A stretch of 63,101 bases of DNA, filler included, from Collodictyon triciliatum (taxonomy: Eukaryota): the NCBI GenBank assembly GCA_043381765.1. It is 5 parts of 5 records of this genome, joined end to end, with 100 filler letters (N's around TTAATTAATTAA, not from the genome) between each part and the next. Parts side by side here need not be neighbours in the genome. Positions count along the whole stretch, not along the records: positions 1 to 15,994 come from JBHJMP010001604.1; 4 more parts are not named here. One strand, written 5' to 3'. Both the position numbers and the translations under genes were made by a program. Positions 3,146 to 53,875 of this stretch are shown piece after piece. The notes under the pieces were generated by a model. It was not told the origin of the DNA, did no database searches, and worked only from the letters and a program-made list of their open reading frames with translations. The stretch's first letter is position 1; each line of letters starts with the position of its first letter.

Positions 3146-6100
3146 ATGGAGGAAGAAGAACACGAGGCTAAAGTTCCAAAGCAGCCACCGATGCGAGGGA
3201 GTGCCACCCTGGCTAAGATTTCTGGAGACACTCCAGGCAAATTGCAGGACGTAAGCTTTTATTATTTCTCTTTCTCTTACTCTTTCTCTTTCTCTTTCTC
3301 TTTCTCTTTCTCTTTCTCTTTCTCTTTCTCTTTCTCTTTCTCTTTCTCTTTCTCTTTCTCTTTCTCTTTCTCTTTCTCTTACTCTTTCTCTTTCTCTTTC
3401 TCTTTCTCTTTCTCTTTTCCCTTTTCCCTTTTCCCTTTTCCCTTTTCCCTTTTCCCTTTTCCCTTTTCCCTTTTCCCTTTTCCCTTTTCCTATCTCAACG
3501 CCTATCACTGAGTTCTGCAAATACAAGTTAATATTGTCTGGTCACTTGTTATACTTCTGATATATTGCGCTTTCCTTCCCCTCCGCAGATGACGAGTCTC
3601 AACTTAGCCAATAAAGGAATATCAGAGTTGGACGATCTTGCCATATGCTTGTCTCTCCGCCGCTTGGACCTGCGCCGGAACTACCTAACCTCACTCTCAG
3701 TGCGTTTCCATGTCTATATAATCACCTATACGCTTGTTCTCTTGAGTATATTGCGATTTGTGGATAAGTGTTTGTCAAGATAATTTAATTTCTGGAGAAA
3801 AAAAAAAAGGAAAAGGCTGTTTGTCAAATATCATTTGGTTCCTCTCTTGGTGGGCTCTCGTCCCCAGAGTCGCTTATGTTATGACACAAGGGGCTAATTA
3901 TTTATAATATACCTGATAGGCATTGAAGTCATTGACGCTGTCTTGGCTACATCTGGCCGATAACGAAATCGAGACCATCCAGCCGATATTGCATATGTTT
4001 CAGTTGAATGGTAAATATCTCGCGCAAAAGAGTCTGTCTGAGAGCATGATGTGGAACATTTCCACAGATATCAATATCCGCAATAAGGAAAACTTTACCC
4101 ATACTTCTTTTGTCATTACCAAGTATAGATGGCTTCATTCAGCCTTTGAGTTTTTTTTTTTTTCCTTTTCTGAACCGAATACTCTTATATAATAATGTTG
4201 ACTCAAATTACCAATATTTTTTCTAGTGTTGAATATCAGCAATAATAAAATCGTGCTGTTGGAGGGGCTGGACAAACTGGACTCCCTGAAAGCCCTTATC
4301 GTAAGCAATAACCGGCTGCGAAGGTTTGAAAATATCGGGAGGTTGAATTCTCTAAATGCTTTAGGTAACTTTATTGGGCTTTGATGCAACCACGTCTATG
4401 TTTCACAAAGTCGCAACAGTCCATTTTATTTCCCTCCTAGCTCCGTCTACTAATCAGGACGACTTCAACTGTATAGTTTTATCGTATAACGAGATCGAAA
4501 CTGCGCGAGGTCTTGTTGGCCTTCCAGCATTAGCTAAACTCTCCCTGTCCCACAATGCTCTTCGTGTAATCCCAGACCTTAAAAATAACACAGAGTTGAA
4601 GGAACTTCGCTTAAATGACAACAGAATCGTCGATATACCAGTAAAAGCTTTCTTCAATTTCTATTTTTCTTTCCATTTTGTTCGTATCATTAGCACATTT
4701 TAAAACGGCATCCATATTCATTAACATTCTTATAATTTAGCCAAGTTTGTACATAAATAAACTATTGAAGTTCATCGACCTGGGAAATAACATTATTAGC
4801 AACATGACGTAAGTTCGTTTATATCATTTGCGGATTGAGAGGGAAAAGTGTGCATACAGGGGAGGAAAATATACTTTAGGGCATTTACACACTTTTTCCG
4901 AGCTTTTAACCTTCATTGCATTGCAGGTCTTTGGAGGTACTGAAAACACTCCCTAACTTGACGTTCTTGAATCTGAAAGGAAACCCTATTTCCAAGACAG
5001 AAAACTACAGGGAAAAGGTATTATATTAGAAAGACAATGTGGTAAAAAAAAAAAAAGAAGGAAGAACGATTTCAAAAGAGAATGCGAAGGACGAATGGCA
5101 AAACTGAGACCAATTTTCGCCAATGCAGGTCCTGGAAATGCTTCCTGGTCTTTTTTTCCTCGATGGACAGCCTACGCCCCGTAACACAAAAGTAATCAAA
5201 AAGCAAGAGCACAAAAAACTAGTGAAGCTTCGTGAGGAGGGAAGAAGCAGAAGGAAAATGAGGAAAGAATCCTCTCAAGAGACCACCGACAAGGACACAG
5301 CCCCAAGAAAGAGTCTGACAAAAGAGGCTTCCATGAACGAAAACCCCCGTGACTCAAGAACGGCATCGATAGCATCGCCTCTGAAAAGCTCAACAAGAAG
5401 TGTCCTCGAAGATTTCAAATCTGCGCCATTGCCAAAACCTGAGGCTGAATCGCAAAAAGCGACGACAGCTGTGTCCGAAACAGAAGCAAAGACTCAGGCA
5501 GAGACACCAGCTCCAAAGAAAGCAGCTGTCAAAAACAGCTTTGATATCGCTGCTGATAAGCTGTACAAGGAGAAGAAGCCTGCTAGTTTGGGCGAAAAAA
5601 AAGGCGATACAGACGCCAGTGATCTAAAAAGCAAGAAAAAGTATCCAAATTCATCAAATAAGACCACTCAGTTCAATTGGTTTTTTTTTTTTAAAAAAAA
5701 AAAGTAGTACATCTCGCATCATCGAGAATAATGATTTATTTCCTAATTAATATCTCTCTCGCTCAATTTAAGTCTTGGGATGGATATCTGTGTTTTGGTT
5801 CCACGATATGCTAATTTATATTTGTGCACTCAGGAAGCCTAAAGAGAAGGAGCAAAAGAGGAAAGCAGAAGGTAATAATTTTTCACGACCTGAATCATGA
5901 ACTTCAATGGGTGTTTTGCTGCCTTATATTTTCAGAATACAACTTACCAACTGAGTGAGGTTTCAAAATGTCTAATACTTCAATAACCTCAACGCCAGAT
6001 GTAATCATGGCGCTCGATGGAAAGACTGATGACTCTGGTGTTTTGATGATTAAGGAAAACAAAAAGTAAGTGTTTTTTTTTTTTGAACTCAGCAGCGGCC

Positions 6101-10600: not shown

Positions 10601-10926
10601 TTTCGTTTTTCTTCTGTGTGGGGAGATTTTGGATCCAACCACAGTTTTACAGGAAGTTTCTCGGTGAAAGAATAATAAATTCACTTCGGCAACGGAAAAA
10701 AGCCATAAAGAACAGTTTTCTCATCAGGGGGAGTATAGACTTTCGGTTTTATTAAGGTCTTTTAATTTGAAAAAGGAGTGCGCGGAAGGCTGGCAGAAAG
10801 GTGTAACTTTGTTAATGGAAACCGATTGGAGGGAGATGAATTTGTGATGACTTCATGCAAGAATGGTCGAAGGTGCGGGGAAGTTAGAAAAGACAGCCAC
10901 GTTTTGGGACTTTCGTTCAAATCCCC

Positions 10927-13900
10927 TTACATCAAGTCCGAGCGCTCAACACCCCGTGGCTCGCGGATGAGCGACAGGCGATAGAGTACGTCATCTTCCA
11001 GGTGAGGGAGAACAGATAGATATTGTGCTAGTTGGGCGCTCTTGGGGAATGGGTACACGCCTAATTTGATGTGCGAGAAAAGAAGGACGAGGAATATGTG
11101 TAGGGGAAAGTAAGTTTGCGGTAAAAGCATATACTAAAAAAACCCGACATATTGTAATATTTTTTTTTAAAAAAGAGGGAGCATGAAAGAGATATGAAGT
11201 GAAAATGAACGGCTACCATATTGATACCGTCTGACCTCATCGATAACCTTGTATACTAATAAAAAGAGAAGGTAAATCACATATTAAACCCTTCTAAGTA
11301 GAGCTTTTACAACGTTGGATAAAAACAGTTCGAAAATAAAGCACAGAACCGATTAGTCAAATCGCAGGAGTGCATAGATTGAGAAGCAAACCAAGTTTTA
11401 GTTTGTCAAAGTTTATCTGTCCGTCTATGATGGTGGGATTTCCATCCTCGATATGTGTGAGGTCAGTCAAGTATATACCTGCAGATATATAAAATGATAG
11501 ATAAGGACAAAAAGATATAACGTGGGAATATGTGCCCATCAAATGCGTTATTTTTATGTCTTATGAGGTAGTTGTGTTGTGGGCAGATGCTTTTTTTTTC
11601 CTTTCGTAGTCTCAGCGGTCATGACTTAACATGGCTGAATAGAAATTTTTTTTATTTCTTGGTAAACTAACCGCTATCCAGTAAACGCCGTGAAGGTAGA
11701 GAGGAGTAGATTTTGTGGGGACAAAAGGAAATGAAATTTTAGCCTAATAAACTAATGTACGATAGAATACATAGCCGCTATACATAGACACCAATACTGC
11801 ACACAGTAAAGCCGCTGAAATAATACATGTAGGGCATGCAGGGAGGTCGGCATTGGTGCAGTGCTTCTCGATACTTTTTGAAGGAGCTTTCTGAACTCAT
11901 TAGCTCCTCAAGGGCAGCGAAGGCCTATCGTTTTCAAAGATATTGTAAATAATGTACTTTAGGAGACATGTTTGCCGCATGGTGTACATCACGAAATAGT
12001 GGCACAAAATAAAAAATGATTATGGTATTACTTCAAGACTTCGTTTCGGTACTTCATCTTTGGTATGCTTCAAGCGATGTACGGCAGATTTATTCAACCC
12101 AGATATCACAGCCATGAGGAGATGGTAATTATTGAGCTCTTTGAATTGCTGTAAATGGAAAGAAAAAAAAGGGGAAGAAGGCAACAAATGTTTTGTTCTG
12201 CTTAGAAATAGCCAAACACTGAATTCACTTGGAAAGCTAAATATACAAATCTATTGAAATAGACCTCTCCCAATGAAATCATTCGAGCCCATGTAAGAGC
12301 ACGGGAAGCCAAATCATCATGCCACAGTATACAGCTAGCAACCCAATTGGAAAGAGAGTTGAAGCGCTGGATGTAGTATAATAGATTTGATGCCCTGTGC
12401 TTGAACTTTGCGACATTCCAAGCTTGATTTAGGAATTCTACGGGCTGGGTTCAAAAAATAATAATAATAGAGGGGTGAGAAAAAATATTTCCCGTCTATT
12501 TAAGCATAAAGCCATGCCATATATCAACGTTTGAATATACGCACCTATGGCACTAAATTGAAAATAGGGTTATGGAAAGAGGAGAGACAGAGAAACCATG
12601 AACAAAAATGTATTTAAACCTTGATTGCACTATAGACTTCCATATCTAGTAAACTCATTTGTTTCGCAATTTCTGCTATGGGGAAATCCTGAAGGATTTT
12701 GAGGGGCAAGTATGAACTGTCTATGAACCGCAGGCCATCCTCGCGATTGTAAGGAATACTGGATAACCCTGTGTTCAACTGAAGAGAAAAGAGGAAAATA
12801 GACATAAAAATAAAAAAAAGAGGAGGAAAGGAGGAAAGAGGTTAACTGGTTTTGCTTAAATACTATCTCTATCTATGAGCCGCCTTATGAAATTAGAACA
12901 TTAACAGAAGCCAGAACTGCTCACAAGTGTGTAAAAAATGAATATATAATTTGTGGTGAAAAAATGAGATAGCGATGGCTAAGTTTATGACCTTTTTTTC
13001 TATTGTGGTCTTTAATTTCTGGGCAACGTTGGGGAAATTGTCGTTCACCAATGTCACTTCAGTAAACTCTGTCAGTTGTCTAATTAAGTCGTCGTTGAAG
13101 TCGGAGAAATGTGTTTCTAACCTAGTAAGTAGTCATTGTTATTTATTTTATATACAAAAAAAAAGTACATATTGTCTCATATTTCCATTTTATTCGGGTT
13201 GGTGGGCGTGCTATACCAGTTTTGAATGACTTGGCAGACTCTAAGCTTAATAGAAGATGCAGCTTTTTTGAAGCTCTCTTCATCGGGATATTCCTCCGTT
13301 TGAGGAACAGCGTATCTTTTATTTTCATCATAGCAACCGGAAAATATAAATATAATGCAGTTAGTAACGTGATGAGAGTTTGTAACGTTGAACGAGATAA
13401 TATACACTAATGAATTTATATTTGATCAAAATAAATAATAGGTTTTTGAATTTTTTTGGAAGAATGACCAAATCATTCCTATTTACCTCTCCATCAGTTT
13501 GCCAAAGAATTTTTCAGAAGATGTAAAAGATTGATAAGTCATGATGCATGCTTTCAGGAACATCGGGTCTACATATTGCGATGGACGTTTAGCAGCAGAT
13601 TGATTGACATAATATTGGGAAACGACTCTACGACCTTATCCTTTTTGCTCTTTATTACAATTTATTTTATTTTTTTACATAAAAGTAGATTTCCAGATGC
13701 ATATACCATGGGTTTTGTCAGATGTTAGGATTCGAACAAGGGAGTTCAGATTTCCTCTTGACGATGGCTCCTCGGCAGGTGTGTCCGTCCAAATATTGAC
13801 GTCAGATGTTTCATCAAGTATGAATTTTTCTAATTTGAATAGTATTTTACTTTATTTTAAAAAAGAGGAGATGGGGATAATAAAGGGAAAAAAAAAGAGT

Positions 13901-15863
13901 TAGATATGGGGATATCAAGGTTGCAGTCGAGGGTTTTTTCGTTCCTCCTCTACTTTACCATTTCACTACCCAATCATGCATTTATTATAATAGGATGTTA
14001 AAGAAGAAAATGAAGAGATATGTATAAAGGCATTCGCCATTACTGTAATTTATGAGAAGGATTTGATCTTTTTTTTTAAAAGGAAAAAAAAACAATACTA
14101 TTAAAAATAGGAGTTGCTATAATCGCAGAATAATATTGTCGAATTTTTTTTGTATTACTTCTTGAGAAACTCATCGAGACACGAGAGTCTGGTGCGGCTG
14201 TCAGGACGTGGTTTACCAAAAGTTGGAGATGATGAAGAGAGGCGCGAATGACGCCCACCAATTGCAGATATACATTGGGCTCAGTGCCGTCTGATGTACG
14301 GAGGCGATCGTCCTCTTCAAAGGTGTTGATTGCAGCCATCAAATGAGGGAGGCCGTTGTCCAAGGCACAGACGAGTCGAGCAAAATGAGGGGTGCACCGG
14401 ATGTAATCCGAGAAGTTTAGCAAAACAGCATGCAAACGGAGGACAAAAGCGTATCCGGAGGAGCTTGAGACAAGAGGGGGCTGGTCGGCCCGCAGGGTCT
14501 TTGTCAGTTGGCCAAGGGAAAGGGCAATGTCTTCCAGGGTGGCCTTGAGGCCTGTCAGGAATGCAATTTCCTCGGGCGTGGAGTCATCAGCAGAGGAGTT
14601 TGCCAAGGCTGCAGATGGAATGGCCGCCATGGCAGTGACCATCTGGATGAGATGGGATATTTCAACCTCAGCTATGAGCTGGAGGCGAGCAGAGCGGAAG
14701 GTGGCGAGAAGAATGGGGACGTAGTCGGCGATGCGACGGGCGTTTGGATCTGTGCGCTTCTTCCTGCGCATGAGCTCGAAGGTCTCGATGGGTATGTGAT
14801 GGACCTGCTTGGCCCACTCCAGGAGATTGTGCCTGTGGCGCGTGTGCGTGAGGGCGCTGCCAAGATTGAGGCAGGTGACGGACAACTCGGCCATGGTGGC
14901 GAGCAGGCTCTTGAACACGTCAATCCCAGACTCGTCCAGCGCGGTGCTGATGCGGAAGAGATCCTCCAGGCGGCGGCTTGTGGCTGCATAGCTGCTGCAG
15001 AGCGGGCCGATGTCAGCATCCTCAAAGTCGGGCCCTTGCAGAGACGCAGTGGCCAGCACATCCAGCACCATGGACGCCGATTGGCGCAGCGCTTTGGCCG
15101 CCGCTGTCGCCAGTTGCTGCGAGTACCGGTCCGTGGCTGGCGTGCTTGCATTTGCGACGGATCCGCCTGTTGATGCTGTTGTTGTTGTTGCTGCTGCTGC
15201 TGCTGCTGTCGATGCTGCTGCTGATGATGATGATTGATTGGGCGGCGTCTGCTGGGAAAATGATGATGAGGATGATGTTGTTGTTGGCGTTGATGATGAC
15301 GGTGCAGTCGATGGTGGCGGCGTGGATGCATTTGCGACGACGGAGGGCGGCGGGGACGAGATGGGTTGTCCCGGCTGCGTTTGGGGCTGGTTCTGCTGCT
15401 GGTTCTGCTGGTTCTGGGAGAGCAGGATGGGCAGCGCGTTGGAGGTGACGATGGAGGCTGTGGCTGTGGCTGTGGCTGTGGCTGTGGCTGTGGCCTGTGC
15501 GGCGTGGCGGCAGACGGTGTAGAGGCGCGTGCGGTGGAACTTGAGGGCCTGGACCCACAGGGCGAGGCGCAGCTGCGTGGCGGGGTCGACGGCCGGGTCG
15601 TCCTCTGCGCGGCAGATGTCGCGGGTCACGTCGTTGAGCGTGGCGGCGGAGCGCATCAGCTGCTCGGAGACTCCGCGGAAGGAGTGGCCCAGGAACTTGC
15701 CCACCGCGTCCGGAAGGCGCTCCCCGGCCTCCTTTGCCGTCAGCGTCGTCTGCAGCGGACTCAGCCCCAGGCGCTGCAGCGGGGTGGCGGCCGTGCGCGT
15801 CGCGGTGTGCCCGGAGGCGGAGGTGTTGCTGTCGCTGTCGATCGTCTTGGAGAGCTCGTCCAT
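10927..15863 (-). CDS. Ras guanine nucleotide exchange factor (REM + CDC25 domain) with a long helical/low-complexity N-terminal exon
   Basis: Spliced exons give FLKACIMTYQSFTSSEKFFGKLMERY (REM), [69 protein letters not shown]...QINFDK, LYRLSLIREPR...TAA; the 5' end lies near a contig end and may be incomplete. Confidence 0.93.
11672..11673 (-). other. 2-nt microexon (CG) of the RasGEF gene
   Basis: Minus strand reads ...ggatAG|CG|GTtagt...; joins TAC AT + CG + GT ATA TAC = Y-I-G-I-Y and restores the frame. Confidence 0.75.
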
Positions 15864-15886
15864 TGGGCGTCTCTGCTGTGTCGTGG

Positions 15887-15994
15887 CTTTTTTGTTTTTT
15901 GCTTTTTGTTTTTTGTTTTTTGTTTTTTGTTTTTTGTTTTTTGTTTTTTGTTTTTTGTTTTTTGTTTTTTGTTTTTTGTTTTTTGTTTTTTGTT
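15887..15994. repeat. (TTTTTGT)-type simple repeat at a contig end
   Basis: Seen directly next to the N run. Confidence 0.9.
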
Positions 15995-16038
15995 NNNNNN
16001 NNNNNNNNNNNNNNNNNNNNNNNNNNNNNNNNNNNNNN

Positions 16039-16050
16039 TTAATTAATTAA
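16039..16050. other. Artificial contig linker TTAATTAATTAA (stops in all six frames) between N runs
   Basis: Identical N-TTAATTAATTAA-N block also at 37733-37744, 53820-53831 and 61823-61834. Confidence 0.9.
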
Positions 16051-16094
16051 NNNNNNNNNNNNNNNNNNNNNNNNNNNNNNNNNNNNNNNNNNNN

Positions 16095-40010: not shown

Positions 40011-43925
<3,915 letters not shown>

Positions 43926-44469: not shown

Positions 44470-46446
44470 TTATTCGGCGTTGGCAGCATCGCGCTGGGCA
44501 ATCTTTGCCTCGATGCGCTCCTTGCGCTGGGCATAGGTCAGGCGGACTGGGCGGTGGCGCACCTGCTGGGCAGGGACCTTCTTTGTGGTGTTCTTGGCTG
44601 CGGGGTCCTTGCGGATGGCGGCGTGGCAGGCCTTGTACAGCGACTCCAGCTTGTCGGCTGTGGCGCCGGCCTTGATGAAGGTGCTGAAGTGGGCGTTGTA
44701 CTTCTCCTCGTCGTCATCCTGCATCTGGCGCATGTAGTCGGCCACGTGGCCTCCGAAGATGCGGCGGCGGAGCTCCTTGGGGTCGAAGCTCTTCGCGTCC
44801 TTGGTGAAGCCAGGGAAGCGGTTGGGCTTGTGCGGGATGCGGAGGCCTCCATCGACGGCTCCCTGGTTGGTGTGCGAGGACGCATCAGTGGTTGTGTTGG
44901 TTCACTCAGACAGTTAGTTGGTTGGGTAAGAGGTTTGTATGGCTATGATGTGGCGTGGGTCTGCGAATAGGGCTTGCCTTGAGGGCGCCGAAGACGCGGT
45001 GGCCGGTGGTGGTGGCGACAAGGCCGACGTCAAGGAAGGTCTGGAAGGGGCGCGGCTGGCCCTCCTCAGTGGGGTCTTCGACCAGGTAGAACTCACCAGT
45101 GGCCTGTCAGTTACGTGTGGGCCAGAGTGTGAGTCAGGGGGTCGCGGTTGGGGTGACAGGTTAAGCAGGGAGTGTGGGCGTGAAGGTGGGGTCAGCGAGT
45201 GTGGGTGCTCTGGAGCTGACTCACTTCCTTCTTTCCGACGTATTGGGTGTCGAGCTTCAGCTTCTGGAGAACACGGCGGGCAAGGAGGAGGCCGGTGGCG
45301 TAGGCTGTGAGAGTGGTATAGTTGTGAGAATGCTGTAGCATGTCTTTGGACGCGACTGAACAAGAGTAGAATGTGACAAACCAGCGGCGTAGTTGGTCAG
45401 ACCGAAGCTGACACCATAGCGGGGGAGCTCGTGGGCGTAGGCAGCTGTGAGGCACACATCACCAGAGATCTTGGCATAGAAGACCTGGGCGATGACATCC
45501 TTGTTGGTCTGGAAGCAGTAGGTTAAGGTGTGTAACATGGAGGGTGTCTCAGAGGCAACAGAACCCGTGTGTGGACGATCCAATTTTCAGGGAAATTGGG
45601 TGCATATATGAGTCTGTTCGTCATGTCTAATGTCTGGTTCAGTCTCAAAGGATACGAAACGGACAACGAAGCGGTACTTGGGCGAGTTGTACTTGTTCTT
45701 GTCCTGGATGATAAGTCCTTTGCGGGCGCGGTAGTCGGTCTTTCCCTCTGTTAGTAGACATAGGTTAAATACTAGAATGGTGTGATAAGTAGAGGGGGAA
45801 GAAAATAGGGACACTCTAGATCTCCCATTTCAAAAGATGAATTATGGCGTGGAATTGCAGCTACTAACGGCGGCGGCGGCGGTACTTGACTTGGAAGCGC
45901 TTGAAGTAAGCTTTGTTTTTGACGAGCTTGACGAAGGCCTGGGTGGAGGTTGGGTTAGAACTTGTGACAACTCTCCTACGGAGATATGATCTGGAAACTG
46001 GGCGAGAAGGATCGGGGTGAAACTGAGGCTCATGTCCGCGATCGAGATCAGTCCGTTGTGACATGTTCGTCCTGGGTGGGAATATATGCCAAAAGTCATG
46101 TCGGCCAATCTTGTGCCGGAAATTGCGCCCTAATTCTGTCAGGAAATGGTGGACTCGATACAAGTGCGCTCGATACTCGCACTGAACCACGGATTATTTT
46201 TTTGCGGTCTTGAAGGTCTGATAGAGCCAATCCAAATTTTTCTCGCTTCGTAAGGTCTTGACATGGTTACCAAGTGTTATGATAAAACAGAGCAGTGATC
46301 GAATTTCGTTTTGCTCTTCTCTTACAACGGAGTTGTGCGAAGAGACCTCCTCCGACGGGCTTCGTTACTTCTCTTATCTCTTTGGCTAATGTTGGTATAT
46401 GGGAAATCTGCTGTGGTTCTTGTTTTAAGGAGGAAGCACTTACCAT
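44470..46446 (-). CDS. RPL5: 60S ribosomal protein L5 (uL18)
   Basis: ATG|intron|[29 protein letters not shown]...[22 protein letters not shown]...[10 protein letters not shown]...[17 protein letters not shown]...FGALK|GAVDGGL...AHFSTFI...HAAIRKDP; strong C/G-ending codon bias. Confidence 0.99.
44863..44977 (-). other. GC-AG intron in RPL5
   Basis: AAG|GCAAGC...ACCAG|GGA; removing it gives the conserved FGALK-GAVDGG. Confidence 0.85.
45509..45655 (-). other. U12-type (minor spliceosome) GT-AG intron in RPL5
   Basis: 5' site GTATCCTTT; branch point ACCTTAAC about 13 nt upstream of the CAG end; removal gives VVRF|TNKD. Confidence 0.85.
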
Positions 46447-53077: not shown

Positions 53078-53875
53078 AAGGCACGTACTTCCAGATTTGA
53101 ATCATAAATGTGGATATTATAAATATACCTTAATTACATGTACAAATTGCAATATAAGCATATTTAGTAAATTAAAAAAATCGCAACATGATAAACAGCG
53201 TAAAGTGAGAATATTTCGGTATAGCAGTTGCCAACTTCTATATAAAGACAAAACAAATTGTCTGCAATTCCGCGACCGTTCCAAAAAAATAGACCATACT
53301 TGGAAGAAATCTGGCACAAACGGCATGAAAGACCAACATCCGGTGACGTCATGCTATTACACCCCGCCAAAGCAAAGTTGCAAAAGTCACTCGCCTGCCA
53401 CACGCAAGGCACAGCAAAGCGAAGCAAAACGCAACACACACAATTCAGTCACAGGGATATTCGCGCTCGAGAAAGAGCAGAATACTTGCCCAGGCCTCCG
53501 GACGATTTCTTTGCTCTGTGCGCGCGGCCTTTGTGCCTGCGAAGCAGCCCGGCTGTGGACAGTTCCGGTCTGTGTTCTCTGTCCCCTGTCTTCTCTCCCT
53601 TTTCTCCAACGGGCCAAAAGAATCGTGGTGGTCGAAGAAAACAGCGGGGCCTACCTCCAACCACAGCATCCCCTCCCCATAAAAAAAAAAAAAGAAAAAA
53701 AAAGAAAAAAAAAGAAAAAAAAAAAAAAAGAAAAAAAAAAAAAAAAAAAAAAAGAAAAAAAGAAAAAAAGAAAAANNNNNNNNNNNNNNNNNNNNNNNNN
53801 NNNNNNNNNNNNNNNNNNNTTAATTAATTAANNNNNNNNNNNNNNNNNNNNNNNNNNNNNNNNNNNNNNNNNNNN

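What the first reader, a model, noticed from the sequence alone, without database searches (positions are those of the whole stretch)
11672..11673. A 2-nucleotide microexon is needed to build the RasGEF catalytic motif
Seen: one exon ends CCC TAC AT|gtatta (11827) and the next begins ctgcag|GT ATA TAC TTG ACT GAC (11478). Joining them directly frameshifts into a TGA within a few codons. Midway, the minus strand reads tttactggatAG CG GTtagt after a pyrimidine-rich tract, splitting the gap into ordinary introns of 153 and 193 nt. Adding CG gives [10 protein letters not shown], the CDC25 consensus PY[LI]GxxLxDL. Known: exons of 1-3 nt are very rare and usually missed by annotators. Inference: this lineage splices ultra-short exons, and skipping could act as an on/off switch for the GEF.
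Basis: partly seen in the sequence, partly recalled or inferred. Interest (0 to 1): 0.85.

Follow-up and report, generated by a model that had tools for sequence, protein, structure and literature searches.

The report
Two-base exon in a RasGEF gene
A Ras-activator gene of an unidentified microbial eukaryote most likely carries an exon only two bases long (CG), because its spliced RNA holds two letters that neither neighbouring exon supplies; such tiny exons are rare but already known in fungi and plants.

Summary

- **The gene.** On the minus strand, exon A ends ...CCC TAC AT at 11827. Exon B starts GT ATA TAC at 11478. Joining them directly gives a stop after PYMYILD.
- **RNA evidence.** Spliced contigs from two runs of one study bridge 11827 to 11479 with one extra letter. 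Read together with a chance-matching G at 11479, the mRNA is ...CCCTACAT-CG-GTATATAC.
- **Source of the CG.** The 347-nt gap holds one AG|CG|GT, at 11675-11670. The chance of that hexamer occurring there is about 0.027. Using it gives introns of 153 and 193 nt, within the 95-213 nt range of the seven other RNA-verified introns.
- **Relative.** Two of two transcript-derived proteins from a relative read [14 protein letters not shown], without the 11-residue insert.
- **Rival.** The main rival (about 0.09) is a 2-nt indel between the assembly and the RNA source. I could not lay any DNA reads to test it.

The claim that the lineage commonly splices ultra-short exons is untested. The idea that skipping acts as an on/off switch has no support.

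Two-base exons are already in print: 57 in Coprinopsis cinerea (PMC12230235). This is a new member of a known kind. Interest is moderate.

The parts
11672..11673 (-). Proposed 2-nt microexon CG. It supplies the third base of the Ile codon (AT+C) and the first base of the Gly codon (G+GT).
   Evidence: It is the only AG|CG|GT in the gap. The mRNA contigs carry C then G between 11827 and 11478 (tables 5, 5c, 8). With it the frame stays open.
11827..11924 (-). Exon A, 98 nt, encoding AFAALEELMSSESSFKKYREALHQCRPPCMPY plus AT.
   Evidence: RNA contig pieces 11827-11923 in X1 and 11827-11893 in X2. Pfam RasGEF profile positions 119-154.
11674..11826 (-). Upstream intron 5a, 153 nt: gtatta...ctggatag.
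   Evidence: GT..AG ends. The 40 nt before the acceptor are 62% pyrimidine, within the 53-90% range of the gene's other acceptors. No RNA contig cover (table 2).
11479..11671 (-). Downstream intron 5b, 193 nt: gttagt...tctgcag. It sits at phase 1 of the Gly codon.
   Evidence: GT..AG ends. A distant RasGEF locus, L001, has an intron at the same codon position and phase.
11392..11478 (-). Exon B, 87 nt: GT + [28 protein letters not shown].
   Evidence: RNA pieces 11392-11479 in X1 and X2; the last base, 11479, is a chance match of the intron's final g. Pfam RasGEF profile positions 152-180.
11774..11779 (-). Look-alike site AG|CG|GC. It would need a 49-nt upstream intron and a GC donor.
   Evidence: Judged unlikely, but the mRNA sequence alone does not exclude it.
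11811..11816 (-). Look-alike site AG|CG|GC, 12 nt after exon A's donor.
   Evidence: A 12-nt intron is not workable.
10927..13121 (-). C-terminal part of the RasGEF gene, as verified by spliced RNA. Exons: 13121-12992, 12778-12620, 12444-12265, 12148-12032, 11924-11827, 11673-11672, 11478-11392, 11255-11217 (39 nt) and 11060-10927 (including the stop TAA).
   Evidence: table 8, refined. The translation is open to the stop and aligns over all its 314 residues with the relative P0001.

Best explanation
The minus-strand gene at about 10927 to beyond 16000 encodes a RasGEF, a CDC25-homology guanine-nucleotide exchange factor. Its coding sequence is interrupted inside the conserved [10 protein letters not shown] stretch by two spliceosomal GT-AG introns of 153 and 193 nt. 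These introns lie only 2 nt apart and leave a constitutive 2-nt exon, CG, at 11673-11672.

**Shown.** The mRNA carries CG between exon A and exon B. The assembly has no CG at either exon end. The gap holds one canonical AG|CG|GT.

**Inferred.**
- The CG in the mRNA comes from that site.
- The 3' splice site and the next 5' splice site are too close to be occupied together. The two introns are therefore probably removed one after the other, by intron definition with a recursive-like second step. This is the model proposed for the 1-nt exon of Arabidopsis APC11.
- Skipping would shift the frame into a stop three codons after the junction and remove the last third of the catalytic domain. Inclusion is therefore needed for function rather than regulatory.
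- The downstream intron sits at a position shared with a distant RasGEF. The microexon probably arose when a second intron was gained 2 nt upstream of an older one.
For: 1. **RNA.** Spliced contigs of X1 (1374 nt) and X2 (546 nt) join 11827 to 11479 with one letter between, G on the + strand, which is C in the mRNA. Base 11479 is the intron's last g, so the mRNA reads AT-C-G-GT.
2. **The same contigs are properly spliced elsewhere.** They are spliced at the other introns of this part of the gene: six joints in X1 and four in X2, all GT-AG once the cut ambiguity is resolved.
3. **A single canonical site.** Only one AG|CG|GT lies in the gap. The chance expectation is 0.027.
4. **Intron sizes.** The resulting introns of 153 and 193 nt fall within the seven other RNA-verified introns (95-213 nt, mean 143). 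An undivided 347 nt would exceed all seven.
5. **Splice signals.** The donor GTTAGT and the acceptor GGATAG are no worse than the gene's other sites. Exon A's own acceptor is CGATAG.
6. **Frame.** Only the CG model gives both an open frame and an uninterrupted motif. The Pfam RasGEF profile runs on from exon A (to position 154) into exon B (from position 152), leaving no room for an insert.
7. **Relative.** Two of two transcript-derived proteins from a relative read [14 protein letters not shown].
8. **Selection.** Of the three differences between RNA and assembly that I could place, two are synonymous and one is L to I. The assembly's copy does not look like a decaying pseudogene.
9. **Precedent.** Two-nt exons exist elsewhere: 57 in 50 genes of Coprinopsis cinerea (PMC12230235).
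Against:
- **RNA and assembly differ.** The RNA source is not identical to the assembly: SNPs at 12665, 12703 and 11059, and a 1-nt homopolymer difference just after the stop codon. A CG indel between strains, or an assembly error, is therefore not excluded. A single 347-nt intron after ...ATCG| would also sit at the conserved phase-1 position seen in L001.
- **RNA evidence is thin.** The two RNA runs belong to one study and share their differences from the assembly, so they are not independent. Their RNA label is a guess by the tool, although their contigs are spliced. The run of the second study (X3) does not reach the junction.
- **The length argument is weaker than it looks.** A predicted intron of 329 nt, not RNA-verified, lies upstream in the same gene.
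- **No direct trace of the splicing.** No splicing intermediates, no lariats and no related genome were available.
- **A second site is possible.** The mRNA cannot tell 11673-11672 apart from the AG|CG|GC site at 11777-11776.
Confidence: 0.85

Rival explanations
1. There is no microexon. The RNA-source genome has ...CCC TAC ATC G|gtatta, with one 347-nt intron at phase 1 of the Gly codon. The window's assembly lacks those two bases, either through an assembly error or because it holds a frameshifted allele.
For: - The RNA contigs differ from the assembly at several places, including a 1-nt indel next to 10922.
- The single-intron layout would match the intron position in the distant relative L001.
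- A predicted 329-nt intron upstream shows that introns of this size are conceivable in this gene.
- No DNA run was laid.
Against: - It needs a 2-nt loss that is not in a homopolymer, exactly at the last two bases of an exon, leaving a usable GT.
- It also needs a chance AG|CG|GT in the intron (p about 0.027), with a pyrimidine-rich run before it and introns of ordinary size on both sides.
- The rest of the gene in the assembly is intact, and the differences I could place are two synonymous and one conservative.
- The RPL5 gene in the same window translates without any frameshift against a 99% identical transcript-derived protein.
Confidence: 0.09
2. A 2-nt microexon exists, but it is the CG at 11777-11776 (AG|CG|GC). 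It would be flanked by a 49-nt GT-AG intron and a 297-nt GC-AG intron.
For: - The mRNA sequence would be identical.
- AG precedes this CG.
- A GC-AG intron occurs in the distant relative L001.
Against: - A 49-nt intron is about half the shortest RNA-verified intron of the gene, which is 95 nt.
- The donor GCTATG is far from the GCAAGT seen in L001.
- All other introns in the RNA-verified part of this gene start with GT.
Confidence: 0.03
3. Exon A is 35 nt longer and uses the donor ATT G|gtgtct. This inserts 11 residues ([21 protein letters not shown]).
For: The frame stays open.
Against: - Both contigs that span the site (2 of 2) end exon A at 11827.
- The Pfam profile and two of two relative proteins have no insert here.
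- It could at most be a minor isoform, which contigs cannot show.
Confidence: 0.01
4. The two letters are added after transcription, by insertional RNA editing or a non-canonical splice with untemplated bases.
For: None beyond the bare fact that the mRNA has two letters more than the flanking exons.
Against: - I know of no such process for nuclear spliceosomal genes (recalled; no literature search was made for it).
- Over about 1.2 kb the same contigs show no other inserted letters within the coding sequence (table 4).
- A templated AG|CG|GT is present.
Confidence: 0.01

Closest known systems
Two-nt exons in the long-read annotation of the mushroom Coprinopsis cinerea (PMC12230235; passages read)
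   Same: Internal exons of 2 nt (57 exons in 50 genes). In most cases, leaving out the exon of 3 nt or less creates a premature stop (63 of 89 gene models). The genome is intron-rich with short introns.
   Different: The lineage differs: a fungus, against an unidentified microbial eukaryote whose RNA turns up in a freshwater metatranscriptome. There the enrichment is in P450 genes. Here the exon lies in the catalytic motif of a RasGEF. That paper's supplements were not seen.
The 1-nt constitutive exons of plant APC11 and VPS55 (PMC4674806, abstract and discussion read; PMC8831610, passages read)
   Same: An ultra-short exon that is not a multiple of three, is needed for the frame, is flanked by ordinary GT-AG introns and is missed by annotation. 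The proposed mechanism is intron definition with stepwise, recursive-like removal of the two introns.
   Different: 1 nt against 2 nt. The plant cases are proven by RT-PCR, reporter constructs and conservation across land plants. Here the support is assembled RNA contigs of one study and a single genome.
The 1-nt exon in Fusarium CYP621A (PMC12940212; only the search listing and the start of the abstract seen)
   Same: An ultra-short exon needed to assemble a correct open reading frame.
   Different: A fungal P450 gene and a 1-nt exon. I did not read the paper's evidence.
Recursive splice sites or ratchet points, AG|GT with a zero-length exon (named in the discussion of PMC4674806; details recalled)
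   Same: A 3' splice site directly followed by a 5' splice site inside a longer non-coding stretch, so removal must be stepwise.
   Different: A ratchet point leaves nothing in the mRNA and serves very long introns. Here two coding bases remain, and the introns are under 200 nt.
Neuronal microexons of animals, 3-27 nt (abstracts in the listing)
   Same: Very short exons that challenge exon definition.
   Different: Those are mostly multiples of three, are alternatively included and tune protein surfaces. This one shifts the frame and appears constitutive.
RasGEF / CDC25-homology exchange factors (Pfam PF00617)
   Same: Four exon translations pass the Pfam cut-off. The C-terminal motif [14 protein letters not shown] matches the conserved block of the family, whose consensus is recalled.
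   Different: The long N-terminal region, rich in Q, T, S and A runs, matched only the relative's transcript proteins. Which GTPase it acts on is unknown.

Membership tests
Spliceosomal ultra-short microexon (3 nt or less) | The mature RNA holds bases between two exons that neither exon end supplies. | tested here: met
   contigs of X1 and X2 join 11827 to 11479 with one unplaced letter. Read together with the chance match at 11479, this is C then G.
Spliceosomal ultra-short microexon (3 nt or less) | The same bases lie in the intervening DNA, directly flanked by AG upstream and GT downstream. | tested here: met
   AG|CG|GT at 11675-11670, unique in the gap. Chance expectation 0.027.
Spliceosomal ultra-short microexon (3 nt or less) | Both flanking introns are of workable size and carry ordinary signals. 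| tested here: met
   153 and 193 nt, against 95-213 nt for seven other RNA-verified introns. Pyrimidine content before the acceptors is 0.62 and 0.72, against 0.53-0.90 for the others.
Spliceosomal ultra-short microexon (3 nt or less) | The genomic sequence at the exon ends is confirmed by independent DNA of the same strain, so there is no indel. | not tested
No whole genome is held.
Spliceosomal ultra-short microexon (3 nt or less) | Splicing intermediates or lariats use the two inner splice sites. | not testable with these tools
   Only assembled contigs were available, and none covers the gap (table 2).
Spliceosomal ultra-short microexon (3 nt or less) | The microexon and its splice sites are conserved in related genomes. 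| not testable with these tools
   No related genome was reachable. The one metagenome locus found (L001, 51% identity) has a single intron at the downstream position.
Alternatively spliced (regulatory) microexon | Both the included and the skipped form are present in RNA. | tested here: inconclusive
   Both spanning contigs (2 of 2) carry the included form. Contigs drop rare variants, so absence of the skipped form is not shown.
RasGEF (CDC25-homology) domain, Pfam PF00617 | A match to the family profile above the curated cut-off. | tested here: met
   4 of the 6 exon-bearing open frames submitted score 26.5-48.6 bits against a cut-off of 23.1. Together they cover profile positions 18-180 of 181.
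RasGEF (CDC25-homology) domain, Pfam PF00617 | An uninterrupted conserved block P-x-x-P-[FY]-[LIM]-G-x-[FY]-L-[TS]-D-[LI] (consensus recalled). | tested here: met
   It is met only with the CG exon: [14 protein letters not shown]. A direct join destroys it.
RasGEF N-terminal (REM) domain, Pfam PF00618 | A match to the family profile. | tested here: inconclusive
   The relative proteins P0001 and P0002 carry PF00618 in the precomputed column. Of the window's two upstream open frames, 12614-12841 had no family at E up to 1 and 12893-13132 only a chance-level hit to an unrelated phage family.
RasGEF (CDC25-homology) domain, Pfam PF00617 | Nucleotide-exchange activity on a Ras-family GTPase. | not testable with these tools
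   This needs a biochemical assay.
Recursive splice site (ratchet point) | AG directly abuts GT, so that nothing remains in the mRNA. | tested here: not met
   Two bases lie between AG and GT and appear in the mRNA.

The most novel reading that the evidence does not exclude
The organism is a deep-branching microbial eukaryote. Its RPL5 is only 64% identical to the next-best database protein, measured over the C-terminal 143-residue query. It may be so intron-dense (9 introns in the last 314 codons of this gene) that neighbouring introns often come within 1-3 nt of each other. Ultra-short, frame-critical exons would then be a regular feature of its genes and a systematic source of broken gene models. 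The three AG|CG|G copies inside this one gap (0.14 expected) could be traces of the local duplication or insertion that created the extra intron, which would make this a caught-in-the-act example of microexon birth.
Probability: 0.15. Interest if true: 0.6.

Novelty: new member of a known kind. Interest (0 to 1): 0.4.

Why it matters
- **Annotation.** A gene finder that cannot place a 2-nt exon will truncate this RasGEF, shift its frame, or insert 11 false residues into its catalytic domain. If this organism has many such exons, its proteome would be systematically mispredicted.
- **Mechanism.** It adds a case outside plants and fungi in which the spliceosome must remove two introns that share a 2-nt exon. 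That fits stepwise splicing under intron definition.
- **Evolution.** The downstream intron sits at a position shared with a distant RasGEF. This suggests the microexon arose by gain of a second intron 2 nt away.
- **Limit.** None of this changes what is known about microexons in general.

Tried and rejected
- **Whole genome.** None is held for this window, so no genome-wide microexon scan was possible.
- **Metagenome scan.** It gave one distant locus, L001, and no DNA of the same species. A slip in frame and a query that was too short came first.
- **Same-species protein fragments.** A search for short fragments spanning the junction found no candidate. This is no evidence either way.
- **Runs X3 and X4.** X3, from the second study, has contigs only at 12085-13122 and does not reach the junction. 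X4 laid nothing. Neither counts for or against.
- **Odd joint at 11058 to 11215.** The intron looked as if it had AG..GC ends. This is an aligner shift caused by a synonymous difference at 11059, and the intron is an ordinary GT-AG of 156 nt.
- **Intron length as a strong argument.** I dropped this. A predicted 329-nt intron at 14158-13830, not RNA-verified, lies in the same gene.
- **Copies of either flanking intron elsewhere in the window,** as a transposon-like origin would give. Only short chance-level hits came back.
- **Short direct repeats inside the gap.** These are two-copy families of 12-18 nt, too short to interpret.
- **Naming the lineage from RPL5.** The atlas gave only 'Eukaryota' with mixed phyla. 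The named sequence hits are at 44% and 51% identity.
- **RPL5 as a second gene to look for microexons.** Its 5 junctions are all ordinary.
Full report
**What is there.** The window is eukaryotic DNA of about 38% G+C with short introns. A multi-exon gene on the minus strand runs from about 10927 to beyond 16000. Its exon translations match the Pfam RasGEF domain: 4 of the 6 exon-bearing open frames submitted score 26.5-48.6 bits against a cut-off of 23.1, and together they cover profile positions 18-180 of 181. Exon A covers the profile up to position 154 and exon B from position 152, so the family leaves no room for extra residues at this junction.

**The observation.**
- Exon A ends ...CCC TAC AT|gtatta at 11827, and exon B begins ctgcag|GT ATA TAC TTG ACT GAC at 11478.
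- I built three models from coordinates.
  - The direct join reads PYMYILD and stops.
  - A 35-nt extension of exon A to ATT G|gtgtct stays open but inserts 11 residues.
  - Adding the CG at 11673-11672 gives [15 protein letters not shown] and an open frame to the stop TAA at 10929-10927.
- The site reads ...ctcctctctaccttcacggcgtttactggatAG|CG|GTtagt and divides the 347-nt gap into 153 and 193 nt.

**RNA evidence.** One run search with the gene listed four runs. X1, X2 and X4 come from one study, with the RNA label only guessed by the tool. X3 is a freshwater metatranscriptome from a second study. I laid all four on 10900-13200.

- X1 gave one 1374-nt contig and X2 a 546-nt contig that cross the site.
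- Both join 11827 to 11479 with one letter that lies on neither side, printed as G.
- The letter must be given on the + strand. In mRNA sense a G would have matched base 11826 and been aligned.
- The mRNA therefore has C after ...CCCTACAT, followed by the base aligned to 11479. That base is the last g of the intron's cag and matches by chance. GTATATAC follows.

The same contigs are spliced at the other introns here, six joints in X1 and four in X2, so they derive from processed RNA whatever the run label says. Two joints needed care. The 12031/11925 intron has a one-base cut ambiguity. The 11058/11215 joint seemed to have AG..GC ends, but it is an ordinary GT-AG intron (11216-11061, 156 nt) displaced by a synonymous GGC/GGT difference at 11059. 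X3 has contigs only between 12085 and 13122, and X4 laid nothing. Neither bears on the junction.

**A relative.** A protein search with the 82-residue open frame at 12202-12450 found 2 proteins among 17 candidates. Both are Trinity transcript translations from a relative, 72% identical to that exon. Both read ...[32 protein letters not shown].... The relative's mRNA therefore has Ile-Gly here, with no insert. This fits AT+C and G+GT.

**Is the CG site more than chance?**
- AG-NN-GT of any kind is expected 0.85 times in such a gap, so before the RNA evidence the pattern was weak.
- AGCGGT occurs 10 times on both strands of the 63-kb window, which gives 0.027 expected in the gap. It appeared in 0.026 of 20,000 shuffles of the gap.
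- Of the 10 CG dinucleotides in the gap, one is AG|CG|GT. Two are AG|CG|GC, at 11814-11813 and 11777-11776, with upstream introns of 12 and 49 nt. Seven have no AG before them.
- The seven other RNA-verified introns measure 95, 213, 175, 116, 107, 136 and 156 nt. Introns of 153 and 193 nt fit that range, while 347 nt would be the longest.
- I do not lean on the length argument. Upstream, beyond the RNA contigs, the best model needs a 329-nt intron at 14158-13830.
- Donors in this gene share little beyond GT: GTCATA, GTTTAA, GTCTAT, GTAATA, GTATTA, GTTAGT, GTTTGC, GTAGCC. The acceptor GGATAG resembles exon A's own CGATAG. The inner sites are therefore as good as the proven ones.

**The main rival.** The RNA source is not the assembled strain. 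The contigs differ at 12665 (synonymous), 12703 (Leu to Ile), 11059 (synonymous) and by one G in a G-run just after the stop codon. A 2-nt indel between strains, or an assembly error, could in principle explain the extra CG. The true gene would then read ...ATC G|gtatta with one 347-nt intron.

That layout would even match the one related genomic locus I could fetch. A metagenome scan with a 76-residue part of P0001 matched 262 stretches, of which 1 was confirmed: L001, at 51% identity. In L001 the homologous Gly codon is split at phase 1, CCA TTT CTT G|gcaagt...tttcag|GC ATG TAT TTG ACC AAC. In the window, however, the downstream intron of the microexon model sits at that same position (CG|gttagt...cag|GT). 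L001 therefore fits both readings.

Against the rival:
- It needs a non-homopolymer 2-nt loss exactly at an exon's last two bases.
- It also needs a chance AG|CG|GT (0.027) with workable introns on both sides.
- The gene is otherwise intact in the assembly.
- The RPL5 gene in the same window translates without any frameshift against a 99% identical transcript-derived protein.

For the microexon, the prior is not tiny in intron-rich genomes with short introns. The Coprinopsis cinerea annotation lists 57 two-nt exons in 50 genes (PMC12230235, passages read). I put the microexon at 0.85, the indel at 0.09, the 11777 look-alike at 0.03 and everything else at about 0.03.

**How it probably works (inferred).**
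- The acceptor AG and the next donor GT are 2 nt apart, so the two sites cannot be occupied at once.
- With introns under 200 nt, recognition is most likely by intron definition, and the two introns are removed in sequence.
- After the first removal, the CG is part of a normal-sized exon, and the second intron sees an ordinary splice site.
- This is the model put forward for the 1-nt exon of Arabidopsis APC11 (PMC4674806, discussion read).
- The order of removal here is unknown.
- The CG carries the third base of Ile and the first base of Gly in the conserved block of the catalytic domain. Without it, translation stops three codons after the junction.
- Inclusion is therefore needed for any exchange activity. 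I found nothing to suggest regulated skipping: both spanning contigs (2 of 2) carry the CG, and contigs cannot show rare forms.

**Comparison with what is known.**
- Exons of 1-3 nt are documented in plants. APC11 and VPS55 have 1-nt exons that are RT-PCR-verified and conserved across land plants (PMC8831610, passages read; PMC4674806).
- In fungi, Coprinopsis has 13 one-nt, 57 two-nt and 27 three-nt exons (PMC12230235). A 1-nt exon is reported in Fusarium CYP621A (PMC12940212, only the listing and the start of the abstract seen).
- My two literature searches listed no paper on such exons in protists among those shown. This is not a claim that none exists.
- The case here is a new member of a known kind, in a lineage without close sequenced relatives. 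Its RPL5 is 99% identical to a protein from JGI environmental data, and over the C-terminal 143-residue query the next-best protein is only 64% identical.
- The supplements of the cited papers were closed. They may list further 2-nt exons that bear on how common these are.

**Verdict.** The core interpretation, that a 2-nt exon supplies the CG, is well supported but lacks a DNA check. The wider claims, a lineage-wide habit and an on/off switch, are untested and unsupported respectively. Interest is 0.4.

Noticed in passing
window 11479-11826 (minus strand): The pentamer AGCGG occurs three times in this one gap (AG at 11816, 11779 and 11675), against 0.14 expected from the window-wide frequency. 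Short similar stretches link these places: 11668-11680 with 11772-11784, 11679-11694 with 11804-11819, and 11761-11772 with 11817-11828. They may be traces of local duplication tied to the origin of the extra intron. This is unexplained.
   Followed up: partly
window 11217-11255 (minus strand): The same gene has a 39-nt exon (YKVIDEVRRYQYG), verified by the RNA contigs of X1 and X2. The last 314 codons of the gene carry 9 introns, so it is very intron-dense.
   Followed up: partly
window 10922-10926: The RNA contigs of X1 and X2 have one G more (minus strand) in the GGGG run directly after the stop codon TAA. This is either a homopolymer-length difference between strains or a small assembly or contig error.
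   Followed up: no
window 12887-13122: One X2 contig (305 nt, 8 differing letters) runs unspliced from the exon at 12992-13121 into the intron below 12991. It could be a retained intron, a second allele or a paralogue (table 8).
   Followed up: no
window 44473-45938 (minus strand): A ribosomal protein L5 (uL18) gene of 6 exons. It is 99% identical to a 296-residue protein from JGI environmental data (P0003). Over the C-terminal 143-residue query the next-best protein is 64% identical, so the organism has no close relative in the protein collection.
   Followed up: yes
L001 6431-6550: The distant RasGEF locus from a metagenome has a GC-AG intron (G|gcaagt...tttcag|GC) at phase 1 of the Gly codon of its PCVPFLGMYLTNI motif. 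This is the same position as the window's downstream intron.
   Followed up: partly
window 14076-15990 (minus strand): The long upstream exon of the RasGEF gene is G+C-rich (0.56 against about 0.38 for the window). It encodes long runs of Q, T, S and A and an (AT)-dipeptide repeat. It aligns at 38-39% identity with the relative's P0002.
   Followed up: no
window 15995-16094, 37689-37788, 53776-53875, 61779-61878: Runs of N come in pairs of exactly 44, separated by 12 bases, at four places. There are also five single runs of 81-795 N. The cause, whether scaffolding or masking, is unknown.
   Followed up: no
window 42095-43263 (minus strand); 3532-5704 and 56277-58305 (plus strand): Open frames that look like a Ser/Thr protein kinase ([21 protein letters not shown]) and like leucine-rich-repeat proteins. 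I judged this by eye and did not search them.
   Followed up: no
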